IMG/VR virus record: IMGVR_UViG_3300027833_001604 | Location: 32,001 to 96,000 of that record | Direction: 5' to 3' (one strand) | From: a virus | DNA length: 64,000 nt | Position numbers and translations under genes: made by a program | The notes under the pieces: generated by a model | The model's database searches: none | What the model was told of the DNA's origin: nothing | The model's input: only the letters and a program-made list of their open reading frames with translations | Shown here: positions 17,456-42,791 of the stretch, piece after piece | Layout: every line of letters starts with the position of its first letter | How positions within the stretch are numbered: the stretch's first letter is position 1

Positions 17456-17812
17456 CTAATTATTGCTACAGTTGTTAACACATACCTTAGGCGGCATGTC
17501 ACTTTTCCAACCTTCGTAGTAAACATGAGTTTGAAATATTTCATGTGCAATGATTTCTTCAAGGCTATGATGTTCTAAATTATTCCAATTTGGATCATTT
17601 TCCATTAGTGTCATTATGCGTGTATCTTCTTTTAAGTCTTTGGTATCTTTTTCTACAAGTTGACCACTACCATCTTTTTTGTATACATTTCGCATATCCC
17701 ATGCATTACTAAAGAAGCAACAAGGCCACACTATGCCTTCGGGTGTTACTTCCCAACGTCTTACATCATTGTGATAATCAATTGCTTTACATTTAATATC
17801 ACACTTAGGCAT
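17456..17812 (-). CDS. stand-alone SPASM/Twitch Fe-S domain protein
   Basis: 'C..EVTPEGIVWPCC..NNLEHHSLEEII..C..NC' matches the C-termini of 11243..12235 and 33186..34250. Confidence 0.8.
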   Translation of the reverse strand: MPKCDIKCKAIDYHNDVRRWEVTPEGIVWPCCFFSNAWDMRNVYKKDGSGQLVEKDTKDLKEDTRIMTLMENDPNWNNLEHHSLEEIIAHEIFQTHVYYEGWKSDMPPKVCVNNCSNN

Positions 17813-18458
17813 AATTGTAACCTATATTAATCTCATTGTCGGCACATAGTTTATCACATGCTTGCATATTTGTATCTGTAATTAATCCATAAGAACGATC
17901 ATTGTAACGGAATATAATATTAACATTCATGTCATCTGCTAGTTGTTTAGCTAATGTAACCTGTTGCCAATTCCAATCAAATATTAGATATAACCAATTA
18001 GTATTGCCACCGTTACTAGAAAATGCTTTCATATTATCAATTGCTCGGTCAAAGTCAACGCCTTCTCTATACAACCAGTTAACATCATGTGTGGCGCCAT
18101 CTATTGCAAAGTCTATCTTTAATCTTTGCTTATACTTTTGTGCAATTGTTTCATACCAATCTGGTGTGCGTAGTCCACCGTTTGTTGATATACTAACCAT
18201 TGGAGCATAATCCAATGCAGTTTGTATAAAGGTATCAACTTGTGGATGCATCATAGGATCGCCAAACTCTCCACAAAATTCAATGTCGTCAAGTTCTACA
18301 GTTTTAAGATTTGATAGTCTGCGTTTAAATACTTCTAGGTCCATGTGCTTTAATTTGACCCATTCATTCTTTTCGCCAGTTTCTTCATTGGTTCTAGCAC
18401 AACTACGACATTTGGCTTGACAATAAGTTGTAAGTGCAAAGTCAAAAGAATGTTTCAT
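17805..18458 (-). CDS. Radical SAM core without SPASM domain
   Basis: CQAKCRSC, 'GEFGDPMMHP', 'STNGG', 'FAIDG'. Confidence 0.88.
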   Translation of the reverse strand: MKHSFDFALTTYCQAKCRSCARTNEETGEKNEWVKLKHMDLEVFKRRLSNLKTVELDDIEFCGEFGDPMMHPQVDTFIQTALDYAPMVSISTNGGLRTPDWYETIAQKYKQRLKIDFAIDGATHDVNWLYREGVDFDRAIDNMKAFSSNGGNTNWLYLIFDWNWQQVTLAKQLADDMNVNIIFRYNDRSYGLITDTNMQACDKLCADNEINIGYNYA

Positions 18459-19090
18459 CTCTCTCGTAACCGCTCTTGTATAAATCTAATGCTATCGTCT
18501 GTTACTTGTGCATTAACTACTAACCAAATGCTATCGTGTGATGTGCTGCAATTAAATAATGTGTGTTGCTTTGTTGTATTGACTACATAACACTCGCCAT
18601 AATCAAAGTGAAGTGTGTTATTTTCTAACATGAATCTACAATGAGGTGCGTTACAATTTTCTAATGCCCATATAAGTCTAAAACTAGTTTGCTCACCCCA
18701 TACATGATCTCTATGTGGTGGAAAGTATCCACCTGGTGGTAGTCTTAGGAAGTGTGATCTAACACTCCAGTCTAACATAGGTCCTACTACTCGTTGTAAC
18801 TCAGAGCTGGTATGATATAATTCTGTAGGAACATTAAAATCTTCTTCTTGGAAGTTTGTTCCATACTCTCTATTCCATTCACCTAAACTATCTAGTGCTG
18901 GTCCTGGGCCACACTTACCACTTTCATTAATAATACACAAGCCGTGACGTTTAATCCAATCTTTGCGTGGATTATACTTTGCCCACTTGTCATCATGCAC
19001 TGAGACTTCGCCAAGCAATTTGTCTATATCAAATTCGGCGCCAATCTGATAAAAGTCACCGAACTGCGTAATTTTTGAAATATCATTCAA
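18455..19090 (-). CDS. Asp/Asn beta-hydroxylase-like 2OG-Fe(II) oxygenase
   Basis: 'LPPGGYFPPHRD', 'NTTKQHTLFN'. Confidence 0.8.
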   Translation of the reverse strand: MNDISKITQFGDFYQIGAEFDIDKLLGEVSVHDDKWAKYNPRKDWIKRHGLCIINESGKCGPGPALDSLGEWNREYGTNFQEEDFNVPTELYHTSSELQRVVGPMLDWSVRSHFLRLPPGGYFPPHRDHVWGEQTSFRLIWALENCNAPHCRFMLENNTLHFDYGECYVVNTTKQHTLFNCSTSHDSIWLVVNAQVTDDSIRFIQERLRER

Positions 19091-19099
19091 TTTGATTTC

Positions 19100-19936
19100 C
19101 TACTCGTCGTGTGTGTTGACATAGTTCTGTTTGAACGATGTCTGCGGATTCTCTCCGCCATTTACACGGTTGTTTAGATGTTTTACATATTGGACCATGT
19201 TATGATCGGAAAATGAATCTAATTTACCTTTAAACAATCCTCTAATAATACCACGCCACACATCTTTGACTCGTTGCCATCCTGTTAAGTTTCTAAGGTT
19301 ACCATAGTGATTAAAGTATTGGCATTGTCCATGATGAACATAACCAAATATTATAAATGGAACTCTAGCTACTATGTCTGCGTTGTTAAGCCAACGATAA
19401 TGTGTAAAAGGAAAATTGTCAAGGTAAGTTCTCCAACCTACTCTTGGTGATCCAAATGTATGTAATTCTTTAGGATTATATAATGCACTGTCGCCTCTGC
19501 AACGACTTGCTACTATAGTTGACATAGCTGCACCAAGTGAATGTCCACATAACCAAATGTGACGTTTTGCTTGTTCTCTAACTAGGTCTTCTTTGATTAA
19601 ATCCCATAGTTTGTCTACTTCACCTTTAAACCCACCATGCACTCTGCCCACTGTTTCTGCAACAACTGGAAATGCTCTGGCGTCTGCTTTAATATCATTG
19701 TATTGTGTTGGCTGTGTGCCTCTGCATGCAATCACTAAATCATGTTTATTCATAAAGCGATATGCTTCTGCACCATCTATGTTATAAAACTCAACAGTAG
19801 TGAATCCTAATTTCCTTGCTAGTTTTTTAACCTCACTTGCTTCATAATAAGCAATTTGGGCCAGTTCTGCAAATAATAAGGCTCGTTCATTACCTGATAG
19901 TAATTCTATTTTAGTTTTTAGTTTTGTGCTAAACAT
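19100..19936 (-). CDS. Lipase class 3 (alpha/beta hydrolase)
   Basis: 'VIACRGT', 'VHGGF', GHSLG nucleophile, 'TFGSPRVG', 'NNADIVARVP'. Confidence 0.92.
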   Translation of the reverse strand: MFSTKLKTKIELLSGNERALLFAELAQIAYYEASEVKKLARKLGFTTVEFYNIDGAEAYRFMNKHDLVIACRGTQPTQYNDIKADARAFPVVAETVGRVHGGFKGEVDKLWDLIKEDLVREQAKRHIWLCGHSLGAAMSTIVASRCRGDSALYNPKELHTFGSPRVGWRTYLDNFPFTHYRWLNNADIVARVPFIIFGYVHHGQCQYFNHYGNLRNLTGWQRVKDVWRGIIRGLFKGKLDSFSDHNMVQYVKHLNNRVNGGENPQTSFKQNYVNTHDE

Positions 19937-19941
19937 AGTTG

Positions 19942-19949
19942 TATTTATA
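19942..19949 (-). promoter_or_regulatory. putative late promoter (probably leaderless transcript)
   Basis: TATAAATA on - strand, 5 nt before the lipase ATG. Confidence 0.5.
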
Positions 19950-21075
19950 CCTTACGTTTAGGTATCTTACTATCTGCACTTGAAACACATGCTTTTGTTG
20001 TGCATATTGTAGGTTTATCAAACAATTTAAACCCTGTTTCAATATTACCTAACGGTTGATCACCACAACTATAACTACGTTTTATACTTCCGTCTGGCTC
20101 ACGTATGATAATACCTTGGTATCCACTGTTACACATCCAGCCTTTGAAGTTATTAAACTCAAATGCATTAAAACGTTCCGCTTGGTCCATATACCATTTT
20201 TTGCCTTTAGAGTCTGTAAACTCTACTTGCATGTTCCACGGAACACTAGCATCGTTTCTACCAATAGTATACTCTGGCATTTCAAAACTTGGCTTAGGAC
20301 GTTCAACTACTCTTGCTTCTGCAGCTTTTTGTTCTGTATAACTACGCTGTGGCATTCCATTGTGTAATTTCTTTTTCATCTCAGGTGTATAACCATCTAC
20401 TACTCTACTTGCAGTTGGATCTGACTGAGGTTTTAGTGTAACGTTAATACCTTGTTTATGAAAGAACAATGCATTATCATAATATGTATCAAACAGCTCA
20501 GGCACCATAACCATGTTAATAGTTATTTGCACATCATGTTCTTGACAAAGTATTAGTTTATCTGCAAGGTCTTGCATCTTCTCTGGTGTGTCAACATGCT
20601 CGATATGTAAACTACATGTAATACTAGCTCTATGAAAATGCTTTACGTAATCAACATACGTTTCAAACCATTTCATTGGCCTACTACAATTGCTTGTCAT
20701 ATGCACACTTGTATAGTTTGTGTTATGCACATCATCTGCTAGATGTTTTAACATATCTAAGTAACCAGGATGGAATGTAGGCTCGCCTCCACTTAAACTA
20801 AAATGGAAACTATTGAATCCGTTTTGTCTTGCTTGGCGTTTTATCTCGTCTATTGTTTTTAAGTTAAGTTCAGTAGGACGATGGTCCTTGCGATCACTAC
20901 GAGCATAAGGCCAGCAATAAGAACATCTGTAGTTACAGAATCTTCCTAGTAACCAACTAACTGTAAATAAATCACGATACAATAAAGTCCGTTGACCAAC
21001 TTGAACTAAATCATCAAATGGTATTTTTGTAAAATCATAATTTGACCACTTTAAGTCGTCTGTATCATTGCTCAT
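19945..21075 (-). CDS. Radical SAM protein with C-terminal Twitch-like Cys cluster
   Basis: CNYRCSYC, 'SGGEPT', C-terminal 'C..G..PDG..SC..C..C'. Confidence 0.9.
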   Translation of the reverse strand: MSNDTDDLKWSNYDFTKIPFDDLVQVGQRTLLYRDLFTVSWLLGRFCNYRCSYCWPYARSDRKDHRPTELNLKTIDEIKRQARQNGFNSFHFSLSGGEPTFHPGYLDMLKHLADDVHNTNYTSVHMTSNCSRPMKWFETYVDYVKHFHRASITCSLHIEHVDTPEKMQDLADKLILCQEHDVQITINMVMVPELFDTYYDNALFFHKQGINVTLKPQSDPTASRVVDGYTPEMKKKLHNGMPQRSYTEQKAAEARVVERPKPSFEMPEYTIGRNDASVPWNMQVEFTDSKGKKWYMDQAERFNAFEFNNFKGWMCNSGYQGIIIREPDGSIKRSYSCGDQPLGNIETGFKLFDKPTICTTKACVSSADSKIPKRKV

Positions 21076-21637
21076 CTTTGTTTCCTATTTGTAATGGATC
21101 CACGCTTAGTTCATTAACTGATAAATGCTCTGGCATATTAATTACGTATTCAATTAAGTCTACGGCTTCGTCTAGTGTCATTGTTTTACGTCCTGGGTGC
21201 TTGTGTGCATTGTTCTCTAATGTGCCAAATGTAACATAACTTACCTTAGGACCACCTGACCAAATGCTTTTTAGACCCATTGCATTGCTTGTGCTACGTA
21301 GGGCCTTCTTTTCTTGTTGATAAAGCCAATCGCTACCCTTTGTAGCTCTGTCAGTTGTGGAGCCTAAATTAACTATATGTAGTCGTTTAAGGTGTCTTAA
21401 AGCGTCTTTATAGACTACATCTAGCACCAGTGTTTGATTGAAGCGCCATAATGCACTAGAGTTAATAAAAACGTCAAAGTTAAGAGCCTTTTCTGCAAGC
21501 TTCTCTCTATAGCCATTTTCAGTTAAATCGTAGCCCCATGTAGTTCTACCAACAAATACTGTATCAGGCCATCTTTTGGCAATAGCACTTGCTAAACCTT
21601 TTTCTGGATTACCTGTGCATAGTATTGTTTTAGACAT
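21065..21637 (-). CDS. Short-chain dehydrogenase/reductase
   Basis: 'ILCTGNPEKGLA', 'DVFINSS', 'VNLGS', YxxxK 'YQQEK'; start adjusted to MSKTIL. Confidence 0.8.
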   Translation of the reverse strand: MSKTILCTGNPEKGLASAIAKRWPDTVFVGRTTWGYDLTENGYREKLAEKALNFDVFINSSALWRFNQTLVLDVVYKDALRHLKRLHIVNLGSTTDRATKGSDWLYQQEKKALRSTSNAMGLKSIWSGGPKVSYVTFGTLENNAHKHPGRKTMTLDEAVDLIEYVINMPEHLSVNELSVDPLQIGNKDEQ

Positions 21638-22856
21638 CAATGTATCCTTCAAACTCAGGACATGCTTCAAGTAGTTTACCACGTTGCAGTTCATCCATTT
21701 TGAGATTGTAATCAACAAACTGTTGCCATAAATCTTCGTGCCAATCTTCAGCTGTCATATACTTTAGTGTGTCCATTACTTTAGGCCACTTTTGGTATGG
21801 TAGTAAATTTAATGCTGCTTTTTCTTTTAATGCCACAGGTAATACACGTATGTTCATACAATCTGGATGATTAAGAATATTAAGATACACTTGATCACCT
21901 TCCAATCCACGTGACTCTGCAAAGTCCAATAGTTCATGTAATGCACATATGTTAAGTGCTTGAACTGTGCAATGTATTTGAATATCTACATTATCAAACG
22001 TGCTTAATTCATCAAAGTTTTTCTCTACTTTTTCCCAACTACTTGGATAACGAATATATCTATCACGATGTCCAACTGCATCAATACTACAGTTAAGTTG
22101 CACACGTTTAAACTTACTCCAGTATTCAATCATCTTAGGTGGAATATTAGTTAGGTTAGTATTATATTTTAGTTTAATTCCACCTGCTAAATCATTTTCA
22201 ATACAATAGTCAAGTAATTTATATTGTGATGTAGCTAGTGTAGGCTCACCACCTGTTAAGTATATCTCTTGAACTGTATGTGCAATGTCTTGGAAGTTTA
22301 GCCCTGTCTTTTTAAAGTCTGGCCATTCAGTCATTACGTTCATAAACTTTAAAGTCTCACCTGTAAGTTCTACTGGTGGATCTAATTTCGCTGTTGGAAC
22401 TACTGCATTCCAATCTTTAACCCACATGCTACTTGCCCAAGGATTACACATTCTGCATTTTAAATTACATAGGTTGCCTAAACGTAAATCAACATAACGC
22501 ACATCCACTGGAATCTTAGTATCTACTTTAACATCATCTGTCCACCACTTTTCATTAAAGCCTGCACGTGGGCTACGAATGCCTGCGTCTTCTTCACGGA
22601 AACAACGAACACACATCTCTGGCTTTTCACCATTGAGAAACTCTTCTCTGATTTTTGTGTATGTAGGACTGTTCCATACTTCTTCTAAGTCATGTTTATA
22701 AATTTTAAACGGCTTGTCTGTTTCAGGGTTTACAATTTGATTTGTATTAGGATTACTGTTACAACACACCCTAAAGCTACCCGCAGCATTTGTTGCCACA
22801 TGCATAAACGGTAGCACACAAAATGTCTTACTTGGTAATGGTTTATCTGTTTTCAT
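21630..22856 (-). CDS. N-terminal Twitch-domain radical SAM protein
   Basis: 'FCVLPF..G.FRVCC..CVRCF', CNLKCRMC..SS, 'TGGEP', 'YNTN'. Confidence 0.92.
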   Translation of the reverse strand: MKTDKPLPSKTFCVLPFMHVATNAAGSFRVCCNSNPNTNQIVNPETDKPFKIYKHDLEEVWNSPTYTKIREEFLNGEKPEMCVRCFREEDAGIRSPRAGFNEKWWTDDVKVDTKIPVDVRYVDLRLGNLCNLKCRMCNPWASSMWVKDWNAVVPTAKLDPPVELTGETLKFMNVMTEWPDFKKTGLNFQDIAHTVQEIYLTGGEPTLATSQYKLLDYCIENDLAGGIKLKYNTNLTNIPPKMIEYWSKFKRVQLNCSIDAVGHRDRYIRYPSSWEKVEKNFDELSTFDNVDIQIHCTVQALNICALHELLDFAESRGLEGDQVYLNILNHPDCMNIRVLPVALKEKAALNLLPYQKWPKVMDTLKYMTAEDWHEDLWQQFVDYNLKMDELQRGKLLEACPEFEGYIDV

Positions 22857-23002: not shown

Positions 23003-23974
23003 TTAAATAAAGTCTTGGTAGTTAGTACCATGTATCTCATCCATAATTTCGCTTTGTTCTATTAATATCTTTCTTAGTATTCCATCTTGCATTGCGTCAG
23101 GCGACATAAATGCTGGTTTTATTACAGGAGTTGATTGAAAGTAGTTTATTTTATTACTGTCACACCAATCTATTATTTCATCTAAGTTGTTTCTATTAAA
23201 CACCATAGGAAGTATAGTCACAGTCATATGTGTGTTCTTAGGTTTTTGCTTATTAAATATAACAGCATTTTCACTAGTTGTCAACCAGCTAGAACCAGGG
23301 CGTATGTATTCATAACGTTCACCTACTGCTTCTATGCTTATGTTTATTTCTACTCTTCTAAACTTCTCAAACAAATGATTCCATGCTGTCATGTCATAGC
23401 TTCCATTTGTTATTAAGTGTAATTCAATTGCAGATGCAACATCTTCGTCAATTAGACGTTGTATTATTTTCTTTACTTGTGGTATCATAAATGGTTCACC
23501 ACCTGTAAATTTTACAATCTTTGCATCTAACATAAGATGACTGAACTCTACTGCCTGCTTTGCCCAACGTGTATTAGGTTTATTATCATATTGCTTAGAC
23601 CAATTTTTATCTTGGTTATCTCTAACTATATTTGCCCATGTGCTACTGCTTGTCATATTACACATTCTACAAGCAAAATTACAAGTGTTGTTTATCTTTA
23701 AATCCCAATGCTTAATTCCTACTTCGTTTTCAAATTGCTTGTTATATGTTGTGCGTAAACTATCTCCTGTGAGTTCTTCACTTAGTTTACATTCAGCACA
23801 TTCATCTAGCCATTCAGTTTCACTACGCTTTCCCCATTCAGCATGACGTGTTTGCCAGTCGTCGGTCCAGAACAGGTTTTGTGTTCCTTGTTTTACTTCA
23901 AATGCACAACATGGCCTTACTGCTCCAGTAGGTCCTATTGTTACACCGTTTTTAAATATCGAACATCTTGGCAT
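23003..23974 (-). CDS. N-terminal Twitch-domain radical SAM protein
   Basis: 'C..G.VRPCC..CAEC', CNFACRMC..SS, 'FTGGEP'. Confidence 0.9.
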   Translation of the reverse strand: MPRCSIFKNGVTIGPTGAVRPCCAFEVKQGTQNLFWTDDWQTRHAEWGKRSETEWLDECAECKLSEELTGDSLRTTYNKQFENEVGIKHWDLKINNTCNFACRMCNMTSSSTWANIVRDNQDKNWSKQYDNKPNTRWAKQAVEFSHLMLDAKIVKFTGGEPFMIPQVKKIIQRLIDEDVASAIELHLITNGSYDMTAWNHLFEKFRRVEINISIEAVGERYEYIRPGSSWLTTSENAVIFNKQKPKNTHMTVTILPMVFNRNNLDEIIDWCDSNKINYFQSTPVIKPAFMSPDAMQDGILRKILIEQSEIMDEIHGTNYQDFI

Positions 23975-24707
23975 AATTTTTGTTTACTATTCTCTTAAAA
24001 TCGTCAGTTGGTCCACCATCGAATATCATATGTATACGTGGCTCTTCGCTACGATTCCATACTGCATGATAATGGCCAGTGTTAATCTTCATTGCCAGTC
24101 CAGGCTCAAATGGCATAGTGCCGTAATCTTGTATAACTAGTTTGCACCCATCTGGATTATTAATGGCTACATTAGTTGCACCTAGTCCTGTCATTCGTTC
24201 TCTGTCTTGATGTGGTCTAATCCAACCGCCTGGTAGTAGTGCCATAAATCTAACACGACTAAAGTTTTCGTATAGCATTTCATCTTGCATCCATTCTTTA
24301 GTAATTGGTGTAAATTTACTAATGTCTGTCCAGTCACTTAATTCATGTTCTGCTTCGTCTGGCATTCCGTAATCTTCTGGACAATTAGTATGCACACTAC
24401 TCATACCATGCACACATAAACTTAACCAGCCACCGCCGCTGTTTGCTCTGTGTAAACTAAAGCATTCAGTTTCTAGCAAGTGTATTGCTTCTGCATGTAT
24501 TTCTTTCCATGGCACATTAATATCTGGTAATGCTACCCATGGGACTCTTGTGTTATCACCAACGTCATTTAAATCTTCTGGTATAATTTGTTCTTTGTCA
24601 GCACTACCGGGCGAGCGTTGTGAATGTTTACGTTCGTTAGCGTAGAACCACTCCTTTGACTCTTCGTCAATTTCTTCCCAATATGCTAAACGTTTATAAT
24701 CTTTCAT
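23952..24707 (-). CDS. Asp/Asn beta-hydroxylase-like 2OG-Fe(II) oxygenase
   Basis: 'LLPGGWIRPHQD', 'NTGHYHAVWNRSEEPRIHM'. Confidence 0.85.
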   Translation of the reverse strand: MKDYKRLAYWEEIDEESKEWFYANERKHSQRSPGSADKEQIIPEDLNDVGDNTRVPWVALPDINVPWKEIHAEAIHLLETECFSLHRANSGGGWLSLCVHGMSSVHTNCPEDYGMPDEAEHELSDWTDISKFTPITKEWMQDEMLYENFSRVRFMALLPGGWIRPHQDRERMTGLGATNVAINNPDGCKLVIQDYGTMPFEPGLAMKINTGHYHAVWNRSEEPRIHMIFDGGPTDDFKRIVNKNYAKMFDI

Positions 24708-27767: not shown

Positions 27768-27943
27768 TCAATTTTCCTCCAATGATGTGTGTCTTGTTCA
27801 GTTGGCAGTTGGCCAATATATTCTTCACCTGTTTCCATATCTATTAGTTTCCATTTGCTTGGACATTTAGTCTTTACTTTTAATGTTATTGCTACATCAT
27901 AAGCAGGCACTTCTGCACCACTGACTCTTAACTTACGGTTCAT
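27764..27943 (-). CDS. 59-aa small protein (not in ORF track)
   Basis: MNRKLRVSGAEVPAYDVAITLKVKTKCPSKWKLIDMETGEEYIGQLPTEQDTHHWRKIE; ATGA overlaps. Confidence 0.75.
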   Translation of the reverse strand: MNRKLRVSGAEVPAYDVAITLKVKTKCPSKWKLIDMETGEEYIGQLPTEQDTHHWRKIE

Positions 27944-35364: not shown

Positions 35365-35380
35365 TATAAATATATTTATC
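35365..35380. promoter_or_regulatory. back-to-back late-promoter motifs
   Basis: TATAAATA on + (35365-72) and GATAAATA on - (35373-80) form the palindrome ATAAATATATTTAT. Confidence 0.5.
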
Positions 35381-35427
35381 CATATTAACATAGCTGTTAA
35401 TTGTAAGCACAATTTCGATTAATACAA

Positions 35428-35456
35428 TTGACATAATGCCAATTATAATATATACT
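35428..35456 (+). promoter_or_regulatory. sigma70 promoter
   Basis: TTGACA-N17-TATACT before the + strand island. Confidence 0.7.
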
Positions 35457-35481
35457 TGTTATAAACCAAAGGAGAATAACT

Positions 35482-36318
35482 ATGACACGAATTGCACTAG
35501 ACAAAGACCATGCAAGTGAAATCACTATACATGAATTTGACGCTGCTAATATACATAGTATAGCACACTCTGAAGAATTATACAAGTCTTTTGAGAGCGG
35601 TTGGCCGGTAGTAATTAAGAATTTAGTTATTCCAGGGGTAGACTATGATTATTATGATGGTCTCGATGATTGGGTTATTAAAGATAACAAATGGATTATG
35701 CCCTGGTATAACAGTCATATTAAAAAACGTGATCGATTACGTGATGAACGTAACTGGACAGAAGAACAAATAGACTTATTTCATAAGAAGCACAAACAGG
35801 CCAACAATGGATGGAACGAAGTGTTTGATCAATTGTTCCCACGTTATGATGCACCAGAGCGTATGCTTAGTCATAGATACAATATGCTAGTTGAAAACAA
35901 ATTACACATTGATGAACTAGATGAACAACACACTGGTAACGAACAACAAATTCGTATGTTTGTAAACTTAGACAAAAAGCGTCCACGTGTATTAACATTT
36001 GGTCCAGATTTAGAACAAATGTGGTATAAGTATAAAGACGAATTTAACTTAGAAGAATTAGACAAAACAAATATACATACGTTTATTAGTGAAATGCGTA
36101 ATCGTTGTGTATGGAATGATAAAAAATGGGATCAATTCCATCATCCATTACACTACATTACATTTGATCCTGGTGACGTTTGGTTCTTTAATGCACAATG
36201 GATTACACATCAAATTGTATTTGGTGCAAAGTTACAATGCTTCGAAGCAGACATTATGAATCATAGTTTATTAGAGCCAGAACTATGTATGGCAGAAAGG
36301 GTGAAGAACCTTGAGTGA
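35482..36318 (+). CDS. Kdo-hydroxylase (KdoO)-like 2OG-Fe(II) oxygenase
   Basis: 'LHIDE..IRMFVNLD..PRV..FDPGDVWFF..HQIVFG'. Confidence 0.6.
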   Translation: MTRIALDKDHASEITIHEFDAANIHSIAHSEELYKSFESGWPVVIKNLVIPGVDYDYYDGLDDWVIKDNKWIMPWYNSHIKKRDRLRDERNWTEEQIDLFHKKHKQANNGWNEVFDQLFPRYDAPERMLSHRYNMLVENKLHIDELDEQHTGNEQQIRMFVNLDKKRPRVLTFGPDLEQMWYKYKDEFNLEELDKTNIHTFISEMRNRCVWNDKKWDQFHHPLHYITFDPGDVWFFNAQWITHQIVFGAKLQCFEADIMNHSLLEPELCMAERVKNLE

Positions 36319-37327
36319 TATACAACACACAATAATCGAAAACTACTTGCCGAAACAATTATTCAACAAGTATTATAAAGAATATCCAGTAGATTGGATT
36401 AAAGAATATTGTAGTGACCCTACTGTAAGTGAACACGACAGTAGTTTATATGGAAACTATAGTGCTCCTACTGAATTATACGATCCAGATTTAATAGCAT
36501 GGGTTAAGCAACAACTACCAGCTATTAAATTAGATGCAGTTGGCCGTGAAGTAACACACGACCATTTTTATACTAATTTTCATTACGATGAACGGGGCAG
36601 TTGGTTAGAGGAACACAACGACTTAAAAGATATGCGTTGGTTAGTTACAAGCCAAATATACATGTGTAACAATCAAGGTGCAAGATTATTAGATAGGCAG
36701 TTAGAAGTTACAAAACAAATTCCATGCCATCCTAATTTATTTTATAGTATTGTTGCGGATCCTTGGAGCTGGCATGATGTGCCAGAAGTAAACAACCATA
36801 AAAGAAGTATACTATTTCGTGTAGGTAAACGTAGGCATAGCACTATTGCACACCCAGATGATGAGAATGATACTGCTTATATTATATACAACAACTTCCA
36901 AAAAGACAGACACTATGCAAAGTTAGGACCACGTATGGGCAATCTAACTGAAGCACATCTACATAGTTTAGGTGCTAAAAACATAATGCATACTGCATGG
37001 CGTAGTGAAGAAAGTCTACAAAGAAACATAAAGAAAGCCTTACAGCGTCATACACGGGTGGTTATTGTGCTGAGTGGATACTTAGTGCCTAGCTTAACGA
37101 TCACCGATAATACCGCACTACAGACGCTTACAGACGCTAATACGCCGGTGAATTTAGATGAAAATGTTGAGATTGCGGAGTATTTCCGTGTAACAGATGC
37201 TAACATAGACGACTATGCAGACTGCGTATTTTCCGATTTAAGCGGTGATCATGTGTTAGCTGAAGCTGAGCAAGTAATGTATACTTACTACAAAAATAAG
37301 CTACATTTGAACTACGTAGACTTGTAG
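36311..37327 (+). CDS. 2OG-Fe(II) oxygenase-like two-domain protein
   Basis: 'EHND..SQIY..SWHDV..RSI'; paralog of 6425..7687. Confidence 0.65.
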   Translation: MSDIQHTIIENYLPKQLFNKYYKEYPVDWIKEYCSDPTVSEHDSSLYGNYSAPTELYDPDLIAWVKQQLPAIKLDAVGREVTHDHFYTNFHYDERGSWLEEHNDLKDMRWLVTSQIYMCNNQGARLLDRQLEVTKQIPCHPNLFYSIVADPWSWHDVPEVNNHKRSILFRVGKRRHSTIAHPDDENDTAYIIYNNFQKDRHYAKLGPRMGNLTEAHLHSLGAKNIMHTAWRSEESLQRNIKKALQRHTRVVIVLSGYLVPSLTITDNTALQTLTDANTPVNLDENVEIAEYFRVTDANIDDYADCVFSDLSGDHVLAEAEQVMYTYYKNKLHLNYVDL

Positions 37328-38181
37328 ATACTAGTAATTGCAGGTGTTATTTCATTGGCTAGCAATTTGTTGCCTACGTGATTAAGATGCTGACATTCAC
37401 ACATGGCTCTGGGTGGCAAATTCTTTCTTTCAGTCCATATTAGACGACAGTCAAATATATCTAACCATTCACCATATATCTCTTGTATAAAATCTACATT
37501 ATCATACCAGTAGGTTTTATGTTTAAATTTGACTGTGCCATCAACTAGTAACCATGCAAACTTTATTTGTTTATTGTTTATATTTGTTACTATATTCTTA
37601 ATTGATTGTATTATTGTTGCATCATTGAAACTAGAACCAGGTGTAGCACATTCCTCTGCCCATCTATATTCTATTACTTCACGCGGCAGATGTGGTATTT
37701 CCCATTCATGCCGAAGGTTTTCAATTGGTTGCGGTCCAGCTATTCTAAACATTTTATCAAATGTTGATCGTCCTGCTGGAATGTCTGGATGTTTATGTGT
37801 TGGATCATACATGATTGATTGTGCAATTGACATATTACGCCATTCACTTTCGGGATCCATTAAATCATTAAAAGGATTGCCGTCAACATCTTTATTAAAA
37901 CGCACTTGGTGTCCACCAAATCTAGGTTCTAATACAACCATTTTACAATGCTCGGTGAATACGTTTAAACGTAACAGTTCGTTGATAACCTGTAGTAATC
38001 CTAAATTATCTATTCCAGGATATCCTAATGATAATACTTCTACTCCAAGTTTTTTTGCTACGAAATGACTGTATCTACTACTCTCTGGTAAACGTTTCTG
38101 ATCACATTGTCCAAATGTATGACTGGTTCCTATAAAGAGAATAAAATCTTTAGTTGGAACATTAATCTGCTTTTGTATCAT
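37312..38181 (-). CDS. SGNH/GDSL-like hydrolase or acyltransferase
   Basis: 'FIGTSHTFG', 'LGYPGIDN', C-terminal 'HLNHVGNKLLA'. Confidence 0.7.
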   Translation of the reverse strand: MIQKQINVPTKDFILFIGTSHTFGQCDQKRLPESSRYSHFVAKKLGVEVLSLGYPGIDNLGLLQVINELLRLNVFTEHCKMVVLEPRFGGHQVRFNKDVDGNPFNDLMDPESEWRNMSIAQSIMYDPTHKHPDIPAGRSTFDKMFRIAGPQPIENLRHEWEIPHLPREVIEYRWAEECATPGSSFNDATIIQSIKNIVTNINNKQIKFAWLLVDGTVKFKHKTYWYDNVDFIQEIYGEWLDIFDCRLIWTERKNLPPRAMCECQHLNHVGNKLLANEITPAITSIYKST

Positions 38182-39436
38182 TTTTTATTCTCTCAAACTC
38201 AGGAGCAACACTCATTACATCATGTCCACGAAAGATATCGTAGTTGTTTGTTATTTCAATATACTGTTTCATTATAGCTGGATTGTATACATGATCTGAA
38301 TCTTTACCAAAGTTTACCATTTCCATTAAAGGTTCTTCATAGTCTTCAAAATGTGGACTATTCTTAATCTCTTCCAAAAATTCTAACACTTGTGCTTCTT
38401 GTTCATCACGTAACCACTGTGGGCTATGTGCCATGCTATAGTATTGTGGTTCAACTAATTGGTTGGTGCTCATGCCAATTCCCTTGTCATTCATGCATTG
38501 GTATTCATGCATGTATCTCCAAAAGTCTACAATATGTAATGCATTGTGTATTTGGTTTACTGTTGTTACTCGAACTTTAATACGTTTACCAGCTTTAGTA
38601 TTACTAAACTTAACTAGCTTATCAAAGTTCTTCCAAACAGAAGCCCACTTGGAAGGCGGACGCAAATAATCATTCATGTCACCCATGCCTTCCAAGGAGC
38701 AGTTTACAATCACTTTTTCGAACTTCCCTAATTGTTCTAACCAACGATCTTGCATGTTAGTGATATTGGTATAGAAACTAAGTTCGATGTGATCAGCGTG
38801 TCCGGTTTCTACGGCCATATTTAAGAGTTTAAACATGTCGGGAGCCACAGTTGGCTCGCCACCGATTAGTTTTATTTTACGAGCTTTCCCTATCATTTCC
38901 TCAAAGCTCGCCCAGTCTATTCCAGGTTGAAGAAGAGCCTGCTTCTTGTCTGCAATGTTGGCATGCCAGTCGGGATGGTTCGCTCCGAGTCCGCTTTGCA
39001 CCATTGTCGCACGTTCCACACTCACTAAGTGAGATGCTTCTTTATTGCACATTTGGCACTGTAAGTTGCACAAATTGCCAAGCCTGAAATCAAATTGTAA
39101 AGGTTGTTCAACCTCCCAATCATTAACGGAAGCGTCAGCAACCACTTCGTCAATTACGTCTTCCCACACTTCGTTTTCCCATTGTCTGCTGCTGACAATG
39201 TTATTGCGTTCCAAATGTAAACATTCACTACATTCAGGTAACCATTCACCGTTGGTCATGCGTTTACGAACATCTTTAATGTAATCGTGATTCCATGTTC
39301 CATCGATGCCTAGTTCTTCTTGGTTAACTAGTTCTGTGGGTTCTTTGGCCATGCAACATAACCTATATCGTCCGCCATTATAAGTGCTATATTGGACAAA
39401 TGGTAATGCACAGAAGCCGTTTTCTTTATTTTCCAT
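38162..39436 (-). CDS. N-terminal Twitch-domain radical SAM protein
   Basis: 'FCALPF..RLCC..CSEC', CNLQCQMC, 'IGGEPT', 'YTN'. Confidence 0.92.
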   Translation of the reverse strand: MENKENGFCALPFVQYSTYNGGRYRLCCMAKEPTELVNQEELGIDGTWNHDYIKDVRKRMTNGEWLPECSECLHLERNNIVSSRQWENEVWEDVIDEVVADASVNDWEVEQPLQFDFRLGNLCNLQCQMCNKEASHLVSVERATMVQSGLGANHPDWHANIADKKQALLQPGIDWASFEEMIGKARKIKLIGGEPTVAPDMFKLLNMAVETGHADHIELSFYTNITNMQDRWLEQLGKFEKVIVNCSLEGMGDMNDYLRPPSKWASVWKNFDKLVKFSNTKAGKRIKVRVTTVNQIHNALHIVDFWRYMHEYQCMNDKGIGMSTNQLVEPQYYSMAHSPQWLRDEQEAQVLEFLEEIKNSPHFEDYEEPLMEMVNFGKDSDHVYNPAIMKQYIEITNNYDIFRGHDVMSVAPEFERIKNDTKAD

Positions 39437-39987
39437 TAACCTTCTTTAAGTAAATCTAATAATAGTTCAGCACCCGCGGCTTGATTTTCTGCCCAATGAT
39501 CGGCTGCATCTTCGTCTGCCATGTCGGTGACATACTTAATTATTGTTGTTGGACAATTAAACATTTTGCCTACTTTAGCAATAGCGTAACCTTCCATGTC
39601 AACTAAATGACTTTTTAGTTCAGGTGCTTTTGTTACAAAGTTATCACCTGAACTTAGAATACACTTGCTGTCTGGGTTTAATGTAATGTCGCCTGCTATT
39701 TCTGTAGTTTCAAATGGTGTCAACCCTAATGCTGTCATTGGTCTGCAATCCATATCACGTTGTCTTACTGCGCCAACTTCTAATAGTTTGCCTACAAGTG
39801 TATGTTCAAATGCACCAGCAGTTCCATAATTGATTATACGTTCGCAATCTTTTTGATTTGCAGCCAACGTTGCTGTTACGGTTGCGTTAATTTTTCCAAC
39901 ACCTGTATACCATACTTTAAATTTACTATTATCTAAATCTTCTATATTTGGTAATTCGCTTCTTAGTGCTACTAATATGTATATCAT
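39436..39987 (-). CDS. mtnN: 5'-methylthioadenosine/SAH nucleosidase
   Basis: 'TGVGKINA', 'INYGTAG', 'SGDNF', 'VDMEGYA', 'KYVTD.AD'. Confidence 0.85.
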   Translation of the reverse strand: MIYILVALRSELPNIEDLDNSKFKVWYTGVGKINATVTATLAANQKDCERIINYGTAGAFEHTLVGKLLEVGAVRQRDMDCRPMTALGLTPFETTEIAGDITLNPDSKCILSSGDNFVTKAPELKSHLVDMEGYAIAKVGKMFNCPTTIIKYVTDMADEDAADHWAENQAAGAELLLDLLKEG

Positions 39988-41417: not shown

Positions 41418-41426
41418 GTTGTTCCT

Positions 41427-42131
41427 TTAAATTTTATAAACTGCTTTATTGTTACCTGTATTTATTAACTCCCAGGTGTCCTCTGTTGCTGTTCCTGTTA
41501 TCTGTAAGCATGGTCTTTTGGTCCAACTACCGTTCCATGTAACGTGTGGTAGTGTGCTCCATTCCCATGCAAATATTGTTCCTGCTTTCCACTGTGTATA
41601 CACAAGGTTTCCAAACTGAAATATCTGTCCTGGTTCCCAATCTTCTAATGTAATTAAAAAACGTATCTTATCAGGATGTTGATACTTAAACTCTGGGTTA
41701 TCAATAACTCTATCCTTACGTGGATTGCCTGGTAAGTTATCAATGTGCCACATAAGTTGATCGTTTGGATATTGATCATTAAATTTACATGTTAGTTTCT
41801 CATCTGTATTGAAACACAACATGTCTGTAATCTTTGTAAACTGTGGAAACTCTCCTGGAAACTTATCGTAATTAACTTTACGAAACATAGTTGCTTCGGG
41901 CTTTCCATCTGGATTGTCTGCATCTTCTACTGTGTGATCTTCGCTTTTGACATTAGCCGCATGCTCATATCGTTGTTCGTTATAGTTTTGATTTGTAACA
42001 CCTTTGCTACGTGCATGTTCTACTTCTGCTTTCCAGTCACCCTGTAACACTCCTACAATCTTAACGTATTCACCTTCTTTGTCCTCTTTGAATTTATCAA
42101 AGTGCCAAGGTTGCTTAAAGGGTGAGGGCAT
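41427..42131 (-). CDS. 2OG-Fe(II)/cupin-type oxygenase
   Basis: 'WHID', 'RFLITLEDWEPGQ', 'PHVTWN..RPCLQITG'. Confidence 0.7.
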   Translation of the reverse strand: MPSPFKQPWHFDKFKEDKEGEYVKIVGVLQGDWKAEVEHARSKGVTNQNYNEQRYEHAANVKSEDHTVEDADNPDGKPEATMFRKVNYDKFPGEFPQFTKITDMLCFNTDEKLTCKFNDQYPNDQLMWHIDNLPGNPRKDRVIDNPEFKYQHPDKIRFLITLEDWEPGQIFQFGNLVYTQWKAGTIFAWEWSTLPHVTWNGSWTKRPCLQITGTATEDTWELINTGNNKAVYKI

Positions 42132-42791
42132 TTAGTTCTCCGGGATTTTACAAGTTGCGATGTAGACATCGTTCCAATTGTTGTCCATGTATTTAGCCTC
42201 TGATTTATCAAAGCCTTTTATATCTTTAAATGTAGTTTCTGGATTATACAGTTGCCATTGCATATCTTTACGCATTGCAAAGTCTGTTATCTTTGCATTT
42301 TCGTTCCAAATATGTTTACGCATGTTATTATAGTCTGTGTAGCCTGGACGATAGTCTGGATAATGTCCTTCACTAAAGTCCATTACTTCACTCCACCATG
42401 CAAAGCTCTTTTGATTTTCTCTATAACACAACACAATATAATCACCCGGAAAGTGATTATACAAATAGTCTAAGTTGAAGTGTCTTGCAAAGAAGTGACT
42501 TTTAATTACACGTGGGCCTTTACCAGAGAATACATTATCAATATCGTCTTGTAGTTTGTGAGGTTCAACAAAATTGAAGTCTACCCAGTCTTCGCCACAA
42601 CCCATACCAGGACCCCAATAGCTACCACGGTGGCCATTGTTTGTGTCTGTTGGGTTTCTGGGTCTATGGTATTGTGTTCTGTCAGGTGTCTCGTCTGTAG
42701 TGTCTGCTCCTACAACTTTACGAAGTTGAAGATCTATTCCACTCCATTTACTACCTGGAACTCCTGCAAACCATATATTTGTATTATTCAT
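42132..42791 (-). CDS. sulfotransferase/P-loop-like hypothetical protein
   Basis: N-terminal 'FAGVPGSKWS', 'VIKSH', 'IVLCYR', a layout typical of the sulfotransferase fold. Confidence 0.45.
   Translation of the reverse strand: MNNTNIWFAGVPGSKWSGIDLQLRKVVGADTTDETPDRTQYHRPRNPTDTNNGHRGSYWGPGMGCGEDWVDFNFVEPHKLQDDIDNVFSGKGPRVIKSHFFARHFNLDYLYNHFPGDYIVLCYRENQKSFAWWSEVMDFSEGHYPDYRPGYTDYNNMRKHIWNENAKITDFAMRKDMQWQLYNPETTFKDIKGFDKSEAKYMDNNWNDVYIATCKIPEN

What the first reader, a model, noticed from the sequence alone, without database searches (positions are those of the whole stretch)
17456..42791. Phage-encoded radical-SAM/Twitch tailoring mega-cluster
Seen: about 25 kb of tightly coupled genes. They encode 10 radical-SAM enzymes with CxxxCxxC plus Twitch/SPASM Cys clusters (two more lie at 1084 and 11243), five 2OG-Fe(II)-type oxygenases, an amidinotransferase, a PLP enzyme, an SDR, an SGNH protein, a sulfotransferase-like protein, a lipase and an MTA/SAH nucleosidase. 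No NRPS, PKS or transporter is present. Known: SPASM/Twitch rSAMs modify peptides and proteins (anSME, AlbA) or sugars (BtrN). Inference: this is a multi-step modification pathway in a virus, acting on virion proteins or glycans, DNA, or the host envelope. It is the best candidate for an undescribed system in this window.
Basis: partly seen in the sequence, partly recalled or inferred. Interest (0 to 1): 0.93.

Follow-up and report, generated by a model that had tools for sequence, protein, structure and literature searches.

The report
Phage radical-SAM sugar-tailoring gene island
A fragment of an uncultured T4-like giant phage devotes 25 kb to ten intact radical-SAM enzymes plus enzymes that add amino, guanidino, hydroxyl, sulfo and sugar groups; predatory Bdellovibrio-type bacteria carry the same gene set, and it most likely builds a heavily decorated sugar that nobody has identified.

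Summary
Window 17456-42791 is a gap-free block of 26 genes with no membrane protein. It has ten radical-SAM (rSAM) genes. Seven belong to NCBIfam NF033640 (N_Twi_rSAM), where the auxiliary twitch Cys domain precedes the core. The amidinotransferase is firm (profile E 1e-37 to SxtG, StrB1 and AGAT). The lipase, the nucleosidase family and two 2OG oxygenases are supported. The PLP, SDR, SGNH and sulfotransferase calls and three further oxygenases rest on motifs or weak hits.

New here:
- Two 'unknown' 490-aa paralogs fold as a GT-A glycosyltransferase domain plus a methyltransferase-like domain.
- One rSAM is a split gene, conserved as two ORFs.
- The nine N_Twi paralogs in the record are old subfamilies, some with closer relatives in Bdellovibrionota chromosomes than in the phage.

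The island is not virus-specific or unprecedented. Bdellovibrionota genomes hold 10-25 N_Twi copies next to the same accessory genes. Campylobacter phages CP220/CPt10 (Timms 2010) and cyanophage S-SCSM2R place rSAM plus amidinotransferase beside glycosyltransferases.

Best reading (about 0.5): cytoplasmic editing of a sugar-type molecule, hydroxyl to keto to amine to guanidine, with further radical steps. Product and acceptor are unknown. This scan had already found the same system on at least 14 other genomes.

The parts
17456..17812 (-). Twitch/SPASM Cys piece (118 aa), the second half of a split classic-order rSAM
   Evidence: Pfam SPASM E 4e-4. Kept as a separate 136-aa ORF after a 209-222-aa rSAM ORF in L005-L008, L028 and L031.
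17805..18458 (-). rSAM core (217 aa, CQAKCRSC), the first half of the split enzyme
   Evidence: PF04055 E 5e-10. 31-36% identical to 33186-34250 and 11225-12235.
18455..19090 (-). Asp/Arg-hydroxylase-type 2OG/Fe(II) oxygenase
   Evidence: PF05118 25.3 bits, cut-off 22.6. 30-33% identical homologs in L076 and L033.
19100..19936 (-). Class 3 lipase / alpha-beta hydrolase
   Evidence: PF01764 E 1.3e-17. No homolog in the fetched loci.
19945..21075 (-). rSAM of a third type (CNYRCSYC, four C-terminal Cys)
   Evidence: PF04055 E 8e-14. 79-81% identical in L033/L034 and 61-62% in the Bacteriovoracaceae loci L059/L109.
21065..21718 (-). Rossmann/SDR-like protein; the likely start is Met28, which would remove the 89-nt overlap
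   Evidence: TGNPEKGLA motif only. No Pfam hit. 37-46% identical homologs in L034, L050 and L045.
21630..22856 (-). N_Twi rSAM paralog
   Evidence: NF033640 374.7 bits. AF2 model pLDDT 87. Falls in a 100% supported clade with 5 Bdellovibrionota sequences.
23003..23974 (-). Short N_Twi rSAM paralog (323 aa)
   Evidence: NF033640 184.3 bits.
23952..24707 (-). Asp/Arg-hydroxylase-type 2OG/Fe(II) oxygenase
   Evidence: PF05118 E 1.1e-10. 33-42% identical in L035, L036, L041 and L077.
24707..26185 (-). Two-domain protein: an N-terminal GT-A glycosyltransferase fold and a C-terminal class I methyltransferase-like fold
   Evidence: AF2 pLDDT 90. VIA Z 10.0-10.7 to hyaluronan and chondroitin synthases, LARGE1 and PBCV-1 A64R over residues 9-280. 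Z 11.8 to 6ulo and about 9 to NNMT over residues 275-492. No Pfam hit.
26185..27636 (-). Diverged paralog of 24707-26185
   Evidence: BLASTP E 3e-17, 21% identity over 476 aa.
27940..29175 (-). N_Twi rSAM paralog
   Evidence: NF033640 313 bits. 35% identical to the gene after the PLP gene in L035/L036.
29175..30383 (-). N_Twi rSAM paralog
   Evidence: NF033640 235.7 bits. Falls in a 95% supported clade with 3 bacterial sequences.
30383..31369 (-). Short fold-type-I PLP enzyme, probably an aminotransferase
   Evidence: PF00155 19.5 bits, cut-off 19.7. Invariant K216 in FSLTKG and invariant D188. 44-45% identical in L035, L036 and L041.
31359..31946 (-). Cys-free 195-aa protein of unknown role
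   Evidence: No Pfam or PHROG hit. Weak Atlas lead to tail-fibre-type clusters.
31943..33196 (-). N_Twi rSAM paralog that lacks the CC ligand pair of the twitch domain
   Evidence: NF033640 261.4 bits. Cys map and alignment A1. The ortholog sits next to the amidinotransferase in L035/L036.
33186..34250 (-). Classic-order rSAM with a C-terminal Cys cluster
   Evidence: PF04055 E 2e-9. 33% identical to 11225-12235 over 349 aa.
34254..35342 (-). Arginine-dependent amidinotransferase
   Evidence: Profile A3 against PDB: SxtG 8e-38, StrB1 2e-37, AGAT 4e-34, HsvA 2e-34. The H340-C341 pair is invariant and aligns to SxtG's HC. 44-45% identical in L035, L036, L041 and L044.
35482..36318 (+). KdoO-like Fe(II) oxygenase candidate
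   Evidence: PF11004 E 0.0025, below the cut-off. Invariant H142-x-D144 and H243.
36311..37327 (+). Oxygenase-like protein (HxD...H motif only)
   Evidence: Invariant H102, D104 and H155 in A7. No Pfam or PDB sequence hit.
37312..38181 (-).
   Evidence: GTSHT motif only. No family hit, and no homolog in the fetched loci.
38162..39436 (-). N_Twi rSAM paralog, part of the core shared by related phages
   Evidence: NF033640 295.7 bits. Orthologs at 70% identity or more in most of the 32 related viral loci.
39436..39987 (-). Short MTA/SAH/5'-deoxyadenosine-type nucleosidase
   Evidence: PF01048 E 1.5e-13. NF004168 nucleosidase 108.7 bits, cut-off 129. Found between the two rSAM genes in nearly all related phage loci.
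39984..41417 (-). N_Twi rSAM paralog, the best conserved of the set
   Evidence: NF033640 419 bits. 70-93% identical in 32 viral loci. 61-66% identical in L033, L065, L048 and L067.
41427..42131 (-). 2OG/Fe(II) oxygenase-like protein
   Evidence: Invariant H129-x-D131, H196 and R206. 41% identical over 59 aa to an annotated 2OG-Fe(II) oxygenase of phage S-SCSM2R, E 5e-13.
42132..42791 (-). Sulfotransferase-like P-loop protein
   Evidence: Invariant GxPGSxWS loop. Atlas places it among viral 'sulfotransferase family' clusters at 0.94-0.98, one of them with PF13469/PF00685 members. No Pfam or PDB sequence hit.
1084..2460 (+). Eighth N_Twi rSAM paralog, outside the island
   Evidence: SPASM E 4e-8 at residues 27-89, before the rSAM core. 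NF033640 251 bits.
11225..12235 (+). Third classic-order rSAM, outside the island
   Evidence: PF04055 E 1e-10.
53128..54219 (-). MetK SAM synthetase; probably supplies cosubstrate to the rSAM enzymes
   Evidence: phrog_1569 E 5e-115. 46-49% identical to annotated metK genes.

Best explanation
The island encodes a soluble, cytoplasmic, multi-step pathway that edits a sugar-type substrate: a nucleotide-sugar, a cyclitol, or a sugar already in a glycan.

Inferred chemistry:
- Individual N-terminal-twitch rSAM subfamilies each abstract a specific C-H hydrogen. They carry out dehydrogenation, epimerisation, dehydration or C-C chemistry, with the twitch [4Fe-4S] cluster as electron sink or substrate anchor.
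- One conserved sub-module turns a hydroxyl into a guanidino group. An rSAM oxidises the alcohol to a ketone, the short PLP enzyme transaminates it, and the amidinotransferase moves an amidino group from arginine onto the new amine.
- The 2OG/Fe oxygenases add hydroxyls and the sulfotransferase-like protein adds sulfate.
- The two GT-A plus methyltransferase-like proteins attach and/or methylate the sugar.
- The embedded nucleosidase removes inhibitory 5'-deoxyadenosine, and the phage MetK resupplies SAM.

Shown: gene content, family memberships, folds, conservation and the shared cluster in Bdellovibrionota. Inferred: the substrate class, every reaction assignment and the final acceptor.
For: (1) The amidinotransferase is a true homolog of enzymes that act on small amines (SxtG, StrB1, AGAT, HsvA; E 1e-34 to 1e-38). 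The catalytic His-Cys is conserved.

(2) The gene order N_Twi rSAM - amidinotransferase / PLP enzyme - N_Twi rSAM is kept between the phage and Bdellovibrionia chromosomes at 35-45% identity.

(3) Glycosyltransferase context appears four times independently:
- GT-A fold in 24707-26185 (Z 10-10.7).
- Two GT-A-domain proteins and a PAP2 phosphatase directly after the rSAM-amidinotransferase module of CP220.
- Five annotated glycosyltransferases, a DegT-type PLP enzyme, one rSAM and 2OG oxygenases around the amidinotransferase of cyanophage S-SCSM2R.
- GT2 is the most recurrent family among 95 neighbours of N_Twi genes in 16 Bdellovibrionota loci (4 members), with carbamoyltransferase (2 members) and one phosphoglucomutase-type protein.

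(4) The nine paralogs do not form one clade (8 changes on the tree). Two sit in well-supported clades with bacterial sequences, as expected for step-specific enzymes rather than a recent expansion.

(5) All 26 proteins are soluble and no transporter is present.

(6) Purifying selection: dN/dS 0.05-0.23.

(7) Nucleosidase and MetK are present as support functions.

From general knowledge, not tested here: twitch rSAM BtrN oxidises an aminocyclitol alcohol before transamination in butirosin synthesis, and StrB1 amidinates inosamine phosphate in streptomycin synthesis.
Against: - No nucleotidyltransferase, sugar dehydratase, epimerase, inosose synthase or classic GT Pfam domain was found among the 26 proteins.
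- The GT-A call rests on a predicted structure with middling Z and no clear DxD motif.
- The structural neighbours of the N_Twi core do not discriminate between substrate classes: viperin 11.2, SkfB 11.2, BlsE 11.1, PFL-AE 10.8, anSME 10.6.
- GT2 enrichment among bacterial neighbours is modest (4 of 95) and was not compared with a genomic background.
- The PLP, sulfotransferase and three oxygenase assignments are weak.
- No product, substrate or acceptor has been observed for any member of NF033640.
Confidence: 0.5

Rival explanations
1. Remodelling of envelope lipid or lipopolysaccharide. The enzymes would act on lipid A-Kdo, other lipid-linked intermediates or membrane lipids of the infected host (or of the prey or the predator itself in Bdellovibrionota), for example to block superinfection or mark an occupied cell.
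For: - Two oxygenases belong to PF05118, which (from general knowledge) also holds the lipid A hydroxylase LpxO. One has a weak KdoO hit.
- A class 3 lipase lies in the block.
- CP220 has a membrane PAP2 phosphatase next to its module.
- Weak NCBIfam and structural similarity to the lipid-acting rSAMs Tes/GDGT-MAS and HpnH.
- Phage and predator both attack Gram-negative cells.
Against: - All island proteins are soluble, and no acyltransferase or lipid-carrier enzyme was found.
- The lipase has no homolog in related loci, so it is not core.
- The KdoO hit is below the cut-off.
- This partly overlaps the main reading, because LPS is a glycan.
Confidence: 0.15
2. Nucleotide or DNA hypermodification. 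The island would build a decorated base or sugar that ends up in phage DNA to evade host nucleases.
For: - Large phages often devote gene blocks to DNA modification.
- This phage has a QueE-like gene at 55955-56851. An earlier unverified note (e1-6040320) places a DpdA/7-deazaguanine operon with a glycosyltransferase just beyond the window.
- Nucleotide-acting viperin and MoaA are among the weak relatives of the rSAMs.
- From general knowledge, rSAM and PLP enzymes take part in thymidine hypermodification.
Against: - The same cluster sits in Bdellovibrionota chromosomes beside housekeeping genes.
- The island holds no transglycosylase, DNA-binding, kinase or base-hydroxymethylase gene.
- ThyA is canonical (360 bits, above the cut-off).
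- In the cultured phages CP220 and S-SCSM2R, the neighbours are glycosyltransferases of glycan type.
Confidence: 0.15
3. Post-translational modification of peptides or of virion proteins (RiPP-like), as in most characterised SPASM/twitch rSAM enzymes.
For: - SkfB, SuiB, anSME and CteB are among the nearest structures.
- PF05118 is named for protein Asp/Asn hydroxylases.
- Three small ORFs of 38-59 aa lie inside the block.
- 31359-31946 has a weak tail-fibre-like signal.
Against: - No PqqD/RRE domain, leader peptidase or exporter was found.
- The small ORFs have no homolog in any fetched locus.
- Bacterial arrays of 7-9 N_Twi genes are spaced by only 60-110 nt, leaving no room for precursors.
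- An arginine-dependent amidinotransferase, a PLP enzyme and GT-A domains are not RiPP components.
Confidence: 0.1
4. Generic metabolic boosting. The rSAM genes would be unrelated auxiliary metabolic genes that prop up host anaerobic or Fe-S metabolism, as Timms et al. suggested in 2010, and not one pathway.
For: - The suggestion is in PMC2853527.
- Fe-S and redox helpers are nearby: a CDGSH protein, a nitroreductase, a weak FTR1 hit and ClpP.
Against: - No rSAM reaches any cofactor or housekeeping equivalog cut-off.
- The genes are translationally coupled with tailoring enzymes.
- The gene set is co-inherited in phages and bacteria.
Confidence: 0.05

Closest known systems
NCBIfam NF033640, N_Twi_rSAM ('twitch domain-containing radical SAM protein')
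   Same: Seven island genes and two more in the record score 184-419 bits against a 170-bit cut-off over the full model. They share the N-terminal C-x17-CC...CxxC domain ahead of CxxxCxxC and GGE.
   Different: The family is only a curated sequence model; I found no paper on any member. Here nine old subfamilies occur together in a virus. One (31943-33196) lacks the CC pair and one (23003-23974) is truncated.
rSAM plus 'glycine amidinotransferase' module of Campylobacter phages CP220/CPt10 (Timms et al. 2010, PMC2853527)
   Same: A T4-like phage carries a swappable block of five rSAM genes with an amidinotransferase of unknown function. The amidinotransferase is homologous (27% identity, E 6e-26). 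Its rSAMs resemble the classic-order type found here.
   Different: A tblastn search of the phage collection with one N_Twi paralog gave no CP220 hit at E 1e-5. CP220 has explicit GT-A domain proteins and a PAP2 phosphatase. No PLP enzyme, nucleosidase or sulfotransferase-like homolog was seen there.
Glycosyltransferase-rich block of Synechococcus phage S-SCSM2R (PQ898602.1)
   Same: An amidinotransferase (25% identity, E 4e-18), one rSAM, a PLP enzyme and 2OG oxygenases lie together; one oxygenase is homologous to 41427-42131. The phage is a cultured marine T4-like phage.
   Different: It has a single rSAM and five annotated glycosyltransferases. The window has ten rSAMs and only two cryptic GT-A proteins.
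Aminocyclitol logic of butirosin and streptomycin biosynthesis (BtrN twitch rSAM dehydrogenase, aminotransferase, StrB1 amidinotransferase); from general knowledge
   Same: The same three enzyme classes could convert OH to C=O to NH2 to guanidine. StrB1 is a top structural-database relative of 34254-35342.
   Different: The twitch domain is N-terminal here. No inosose or 2-deoxy-inosose synthase, kinase or resistance gene is present. BtrN was not among the listed structural matches. Membership is not claimed.
Marine T4-like environmental viral genome with 12 rSAM genes (Nishimura et al. 2017, PMC5332604)
   Same: An uncultured marine T4-like phage with a dozen rSAM genes plus Fe-S-related helpers such as ClpP.
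   Different: That paper only counts the genes, in the context of Fe-S cluster supply. I did not compare the sequences.

Membership tests
Radical SAM superfamily (PF04055) | CxxxCxxC cluster motif, and an HMM match above the gathering score | tested here: met
   All ten island genes carry CxxxCxxC. All ten reach or exceed the 29.5-bit gathering score in hmmscan; the lowest is 29175-30383 at exactly 29.5 bits. GGE is invariant in the N_Twi set.
NF033640 N_Twi_rSAM | Full-length HMM score of at least 170 bits | tested here: met
   Seven island genes score 184.3-419.1 bits. Nine copies in the 109-kb record pass the cut-off. The other three island rSAMs score 32-50 bits and are not members.
NF033640 N_Twi_rSAM | Auxiliary twitch/SPASM Cys domain placed N-terminal to the rSAM core | tested here: met
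   Pfam SPASM matches fall at residues 13-98, before the Radical_SAM matches at 120-316, in five proteins. C14, C95 and C98 are invariant. The CC pair is present in six of eight.
Amidinotransferase family (AGAT / StrB1 / SxtG) | Homology over the whole fold, and the catalytic Cys-His pair | tested here: met
   Profile E 8e-38 to 4e-34 in two stretches covering positions 4-259 and 310-372. Invariant H340-C341 aligns to 'HC' of SxtG. The Pfam ADI hit alone is below the cut-off.
SPASM/twitch RiPP maturase systems | RRE (PqqD-like) domain and an adjacent, conserved precursor peptide | tested here: not met
   No PqqD/RRE match in any protein. The three small ORFs have no homolog in 112 fetched loci. 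Bacterial arrays have 60-110-nt spacers.
2-deoxystreptamine / streptidine aminoglycoside clusters | Carbocycle-forming synthase (DOI synthase or inositol-phosphate synthase) and sugar-nucleotide enzymes | tested here: not met
   No such Pfam domain among the 26 proteins, even at E up to 5 for the unknowns. The host could supply the carbocycle, so 'works like' is not excluded.
GT-A glycosyltransferases | GT-A Rossmann-like fold with a DxD metal site | tested here: inconclusive
   Fold match Z 10.0-10.7 with 155-188 aligned residues for residues 9-280 of 24707-26185. No Pfam GT hit. A nearly invariant E233-D234 is the only DxD-like candidate.
Phage DNA hypermodification systems | A base-exchange or base-activating enzyme (DpdA/TGT, dNMP hydroxymethylase, DNA kinase) within the cluster | tested here: not met
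   None in the island. ThyA at 9833-10714 is canonical. A deazaguanine operon elsewhere in the record was not examined.
MTA/SAH nucleosidase (MtnN/Pfs) | Equivalog HMM score above the cut-off | tested here: not met
   39436-39987 scores 108.7 against 129 (NF004168), 71.7 against 169 (NF004079) and 50.2 against 73.8 (TIGR01704). It passes only the superfamily model PF01048. It is a short (183 aa), diverged relative whose substrate is untested.

The most novel reading that the evidence does not exclude
The product is not a structural coat. It is a guanidinylated, hydroxylated, possibly sulfated aminoglycoside-like small molecule made in the infected or invaded cell. A giant phage lineage and predatory Bdellovibrionota would share it as a weapon to shut down or poison the host or prey, or to exclude competitors. 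It would be made by a previously unstudied class of N-terminal-twitch rSAM sugar-editing enzymes, each subfamily catalysing a different radical reaction.
Probability: 0.1. Interest if true: 0.9.

Novelty: new variant of a known kind. Interest (0 to 1): 0.66.

Why it matters
NF033640-type enzymes are a very large family with no bench data. A profile of the eight window paralogs finds 7,541 clusters (at 50% identity) with E up to 1e-30 among 1.84 billion representatives, including fused two- and three-domain forms.

Related phage fragments carry 8-21 rSAM genes each. That is a large investment of oxygen-sensitive, SAM-consuming enzymes, together with a phage-encoded SAM synthetase and nucleosidase.

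Identifying the product would have three consequences:
- It would assign chemistry to perhaps nine or more new rSAM reaction types.
- It would explain a puzzle noted in phage genomes since 2010.
- It would show what a giant phage lineage and bacterial predators of Gram-negative cells have in common.

Two cultured phages with related modules, CP220 and S-SCSM2R, make the question testable at the bench.

Tried and rejected
- Megablast of the island against 50,697 phage records found no match (one search failed on a length limit).
- Alignment A1 of the eight paralogs was too divergent to seed a genome scan. I used an ortholog alignment (A2) instead.
- Profile-to-PDB sequence searches gave nothing usable for 41427-42131, 42132-42791, 36311-37327 and 35482-36318, and only noise-level hits for the PLP enzyme.
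- The N_Twi profile against PDB sequences gave only SkfB at E 0.0086.
- Foldseek and VIA on the N_Twi model returned generic rSAM barrels with tied scores. They give no substrate inference. I could not inspect model coordinates to test whether the N-terminal twitch domain occupies the position of a C-terminal one.
- Literature searches for twitch+phage, jumbo phage+rSAM, Bdellovibrio+rSAM and AprD4 found nothing on the N_Twi family.
- No tRNA genes in the window, so no host hint.
So I have no precomputed neighbourhood annotation, no sample metadata and no expression evidence.
- The idea that the split rSAM is an assembly frameshift was rejected, because the two-ORF form recurs in relatives at 43-59% identity.
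- The idea that 8414-9091 is a second 5'-deoxyadenosine nucleosidase was rejected. It is a DeoD-type purine nucleoside phosphorylase above the cut-off.
- 'Mis-assembled cellular contig' was rejected: T4-type clamp loader, PHROG hallmark genes, and 32 syntenic IMG/VR contigs, one with Gp23.
- Complex prediction was not used, because the report claims no specific protein-protein contact.

Full report
WHAT IS THERE

The window is bases 32001-96000 of a single 109,013-bp IMG/VR virus record. The record has no terminal repeats, and CheckV puts it at about 30% complete, which implies a genome of roughly 350 kb. Flanking genes are phage-like:
- ClpP, a T4 gp44-type clamp loader, ThyA and DeoD on the left.
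- An HNH endonuclease, an ATPase, an exonuclease, MetK, a QueE-like gene, a PRPP synthetase and a 936-aa subtilisin-like protease on the right.

A 192-kb relative carries a T4-type Gp23 major capsid gene. Megablast against 50,697 phage records found nothing, so the lineage is uncultured.

THE ISLAND

Between 17456 and 42791 lie 26 ORFs with essentially no non-coding DNA. Most junctions overlap by 1-23 nt. The only real gap is a 139-nt divergent region at 35343-35481.

Ten genes are radical-SAM enzymes with CxxxCxxC, in three groups:
- Seven are paralogs 20-32% identical to each other. In these a SPASM/twitch-type Cys domain (C-x17-CC...CxxC) precedes the core. All seven exceed the cut-off of NCBIfam NF033640, N_Twi_rSAM. 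Two more copies lie elsewhere in the record.
- Two are classic-order enzymes with C-terminal Cys.
- One is a third type.

One classic-order enzyme is split into a 217-aa core ORF and a 118-aa Cys-domain ORF that overlap by 8 nt. The same two-ORF arrangement recurs in relatives that are only 43-59% identical, so it is a natural split and not an error.

ACCESSORY GENES

- Amidinotransferase (34254-35342): secure. A ten-sequence profile hits SxtG, StrB1, AGAT and HsvA at E 1e-34 to 1e-38, and the catalytic His-Cys is invariant.
- Lipase_3, two PF05118 oxygenases and a PNP_UDP_1-family nucleosidase pass Pfam cut-offs. The nucleosidase stays below every NCBIfam equivalog cut-off.
- The PLP enzyme is borderline but keeps a Lys in FSLTKG.
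- Three more proteins have conserved HxD...H triads. One of them is homologous to an annotated 2OG oxygenase of a cyanophage.
- The sulfotransferase-like call rests on a P-loop motif and a language-model lead.
- The SDR and SGNH calls rest on motifs only.
- The two largest unknowns, 24707-26185 and 26185-27636, are paralogs. A confident AF2 model (pLDDT 90) has an N-terminal GT-A glycosyltransferase fold (Z 10.0-10.7 to hyaluronan and chondroitin synthases, LARGE1 and chlorovirus A64R). Its C-terminal domain is class I methyltransferase-like (Z 11.8 and about 9).

No protein has a credible membrane segment, and no transporter, NRPS or PKS is present.

RELATIVES

Thirty-two IMG/VR contigs encode orthologs of 39984-41417 at 70-93% identity. 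Most share a core: that rSAM, the nucleosidase, rSAM 38162-39436, the sulfotransferase-like and oxygenase-like genes, the amidinotransferase and the KdoO-like gene. The rest is mosaic. Five of these records hold 8-21 rSAM genes each. Orthologs show dN/dS of 0.05-0.23.

Among one genome per prokaryotic species, the 80 best loci are overwhelmingly Bdellovibrionota. Four Bdellovibrionota genomes, some complete chromosomes, hold 10-25 N_Twi copies in tandem arrays. Of 121 sampled genomes of the phylum, 27 have at least one.

Several of these bacterial loci also carry homologs (30-45% identity) of the phage amidinotransferase, PLP enzyme, PF05118 oxygenases, KdoO-like gene, SDR-like gene and classic-order rSAMs. 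Local gene order is partly kept. One such cluster abuts a Ser/Thr kinase, rpoD and dnaG, so it is chromosomal.

On a tree of 92 N_Twi sequences the nine window paralogs are scattered (8 label changes). One sits in a 100%-supported clade with five bacterial sequences and another in a 95% clade with three (FastTree, with long branches, so only these two placements are quoted). The paralogs are therefore old, functionally distinct subfamilies that phages and bacteria share.

A few MAG contigs labelled Crocinitomicaceae, Gammaproteobacteria or Rickettsiales have 50-80% identity and GC near 35%. They are probably mis-binned phage DNA.

WHAT IT PROBABLY DOES

Five lines point to a sugar-type substrate:
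- An amidinotransferase of the kind that acts on small amines.
- A PLP enzyme next to it.
- Twitch rSAMs on both sides.
- Hydroxylases and a sulfotransferase-like protein.
- GT-A domains.

Context agrees in three other places:
- In CP220 the rSAM-amidinotransferase module is followed by two nucleotide-diphospho-sugar-transferase-domain proteins and a PAP2 phosphatase.
- In the cultured cyanophage S-SCSM2R the amidinotransferase lies among five annotated glycosyltransferases, a DegT-type PLP enzyme, one rSAM and 2OG oxygenases.
- Among 95 neighbours of N_Twi genes in Bdellovibrionota, GT2 is the most recurrent family, followed by carbamoyltransferase.

The simplest chemical reading of the conserved sub-module is alcohol to ketone (rSAM), ketone to amine (PLP enzyme), and amine to guanidine (amidinotransferase, with arginine as donor). 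This is the logic known from butirosin and streptomycin biosynthesis (general knowledge, not tested here). The remaining rSAM subfamilies would perform further radical edits.

The nucleosidase and MetK fit a support role, removing 5'-deoxyadenosine and regenerating SAM. A nitroreductase-like gene, a CDGSH Fe-S protein and a weak FTR1 hit nearby may also help.

I put this reading at about 0.5.

WHAT REMAINS OPEN

- The structural neighbours of the N_Twi core are tied across peptide-, nucleotide- and sugar-acting rSAMs, so the fold says nothing about substrate.
- No classic sugar-nucleotide enzyme lies in the island.
- The acceptor (virion protein, envelope glycan or lipid, DNA, or none) is unknown.
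- Rivals are envelope lipid/LPS remodelling (0.15), DNA hypermodification (0.15), peptide or protein modification (0.10) and unrelated metabolic boosters (0.05). Their evidence is listed in the Rival explanations section.

PRECEDENT AND NOVELTY

Timms et al. 2010 (PMC2853527) described an interchangeable module of five rSAM genes plus a putative glycine amidinotransferase in CP220/CPt10, with 11-12 rSAM genes per genome, and called it highly unusual. Nishimura et al. 2017 (PMC5332604) reported a marine T4-like genome with 12 rSAM genes. NCBI curates the N_Twi family. None of these assigns a function.

This scan had already reported the same system on at least 14 other genomes, with follow-ups reaching similar conclusions. 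I re-derived the main points independently on this window.

- The GT-A plus methyltransferase-like fold of the two large unknowns.
- The S-SCSM2R context.
- The conserved split rSAM.
- The tally of neighbouring families in Bdellovibrionota loci.
- The family size: 7,541 clusters (at 50% identity) with E up to 1e-30.

I class it as a new variant of a known kind. It is an rSAM-rich tailoring cluster whose enzyme superfamilies are known, but whose dominant enzyme family, product and biological role are uncharacterised.

Noticed in passing
window 17456-18458: A classic-order rSAM is encoded as two overlapping ORFs: a 217-aa core and a 118-aa Cys domain. Related phages that are only 43-59% identical keep the same split, so it appears to be a natural two-subunit rSAM/twitch enzyme.
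   Followed up: partly
window 31943-33196: This N_Twi paralog lacks the CC pair of the twitch domain and keeps only three of its usual Cys. That could leave an open iron site for substrate binding. Its bacterial ortholog sits next to the amidinotransferase.
   Followed up: partly
window 31359-31946: A Cys-free 195-aa protein sits between an rSAM and the PLP gene. It has a weak language-model resemblance (0.89-0.91, low shared-feature count) to phage tail-fibre-type clusters (Mtd_N, PTL_trimer, DUF2793). It could be a protein acceptor, but no HMM supports this.
   Followed up: partly
window 47946-54219: Possible supply chain for the rSAM enzymes: a nitroreductase-like gene (47946-48608), a WYL_2-CDGSH Fe-S fusion (50167-50541), a weak FTR1 iron-permease fragment (50693-51235) and MetK (53128-54219).
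   Followed up: partly
window 55955-56851: The QueE-like rSAM has no CxxxCxxC. Its NCBIfam QueE matches fall only at residues 1-36 and 131-264, which suggests an insertion of about 95 aa or an unusual cluster motif.
   Followed up: no
window 59584-62394: A 936-aa protein with a central subtilisin-like protease domain. Its nearest matches (25-28% identity) are proteases of large Bacillus phages.
   Followed up: no
proteins P0192-P0217, P0276, P0282: The representative library holds proteins of 770-1,413 aa with two or three full N_Twi matches, meaning naturally fused tandem N_Twi enzymes.
   Followed up: no
L033, L034 (G005), L052, L065: MAG contigs labelled Crocinitomicaceae, Gammaproteobacteria, Rickettsiales and Neisseriaceae carry phage-like N_Twi arrays. 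They have 50-81% identity to window proteins and GC of 0.34-0.35. They are probably phage contigs binned into bacterial MAGs.
   Followed up: partly
window 8414-9091 and 9833-10714: A DeoD-type purine nucleoside phosphorylase and a canonical ThyA, both above NCBIfam cut-offs. These are ordinary nucleotide-salvage genes and not part of the island.
   Followed up: yes
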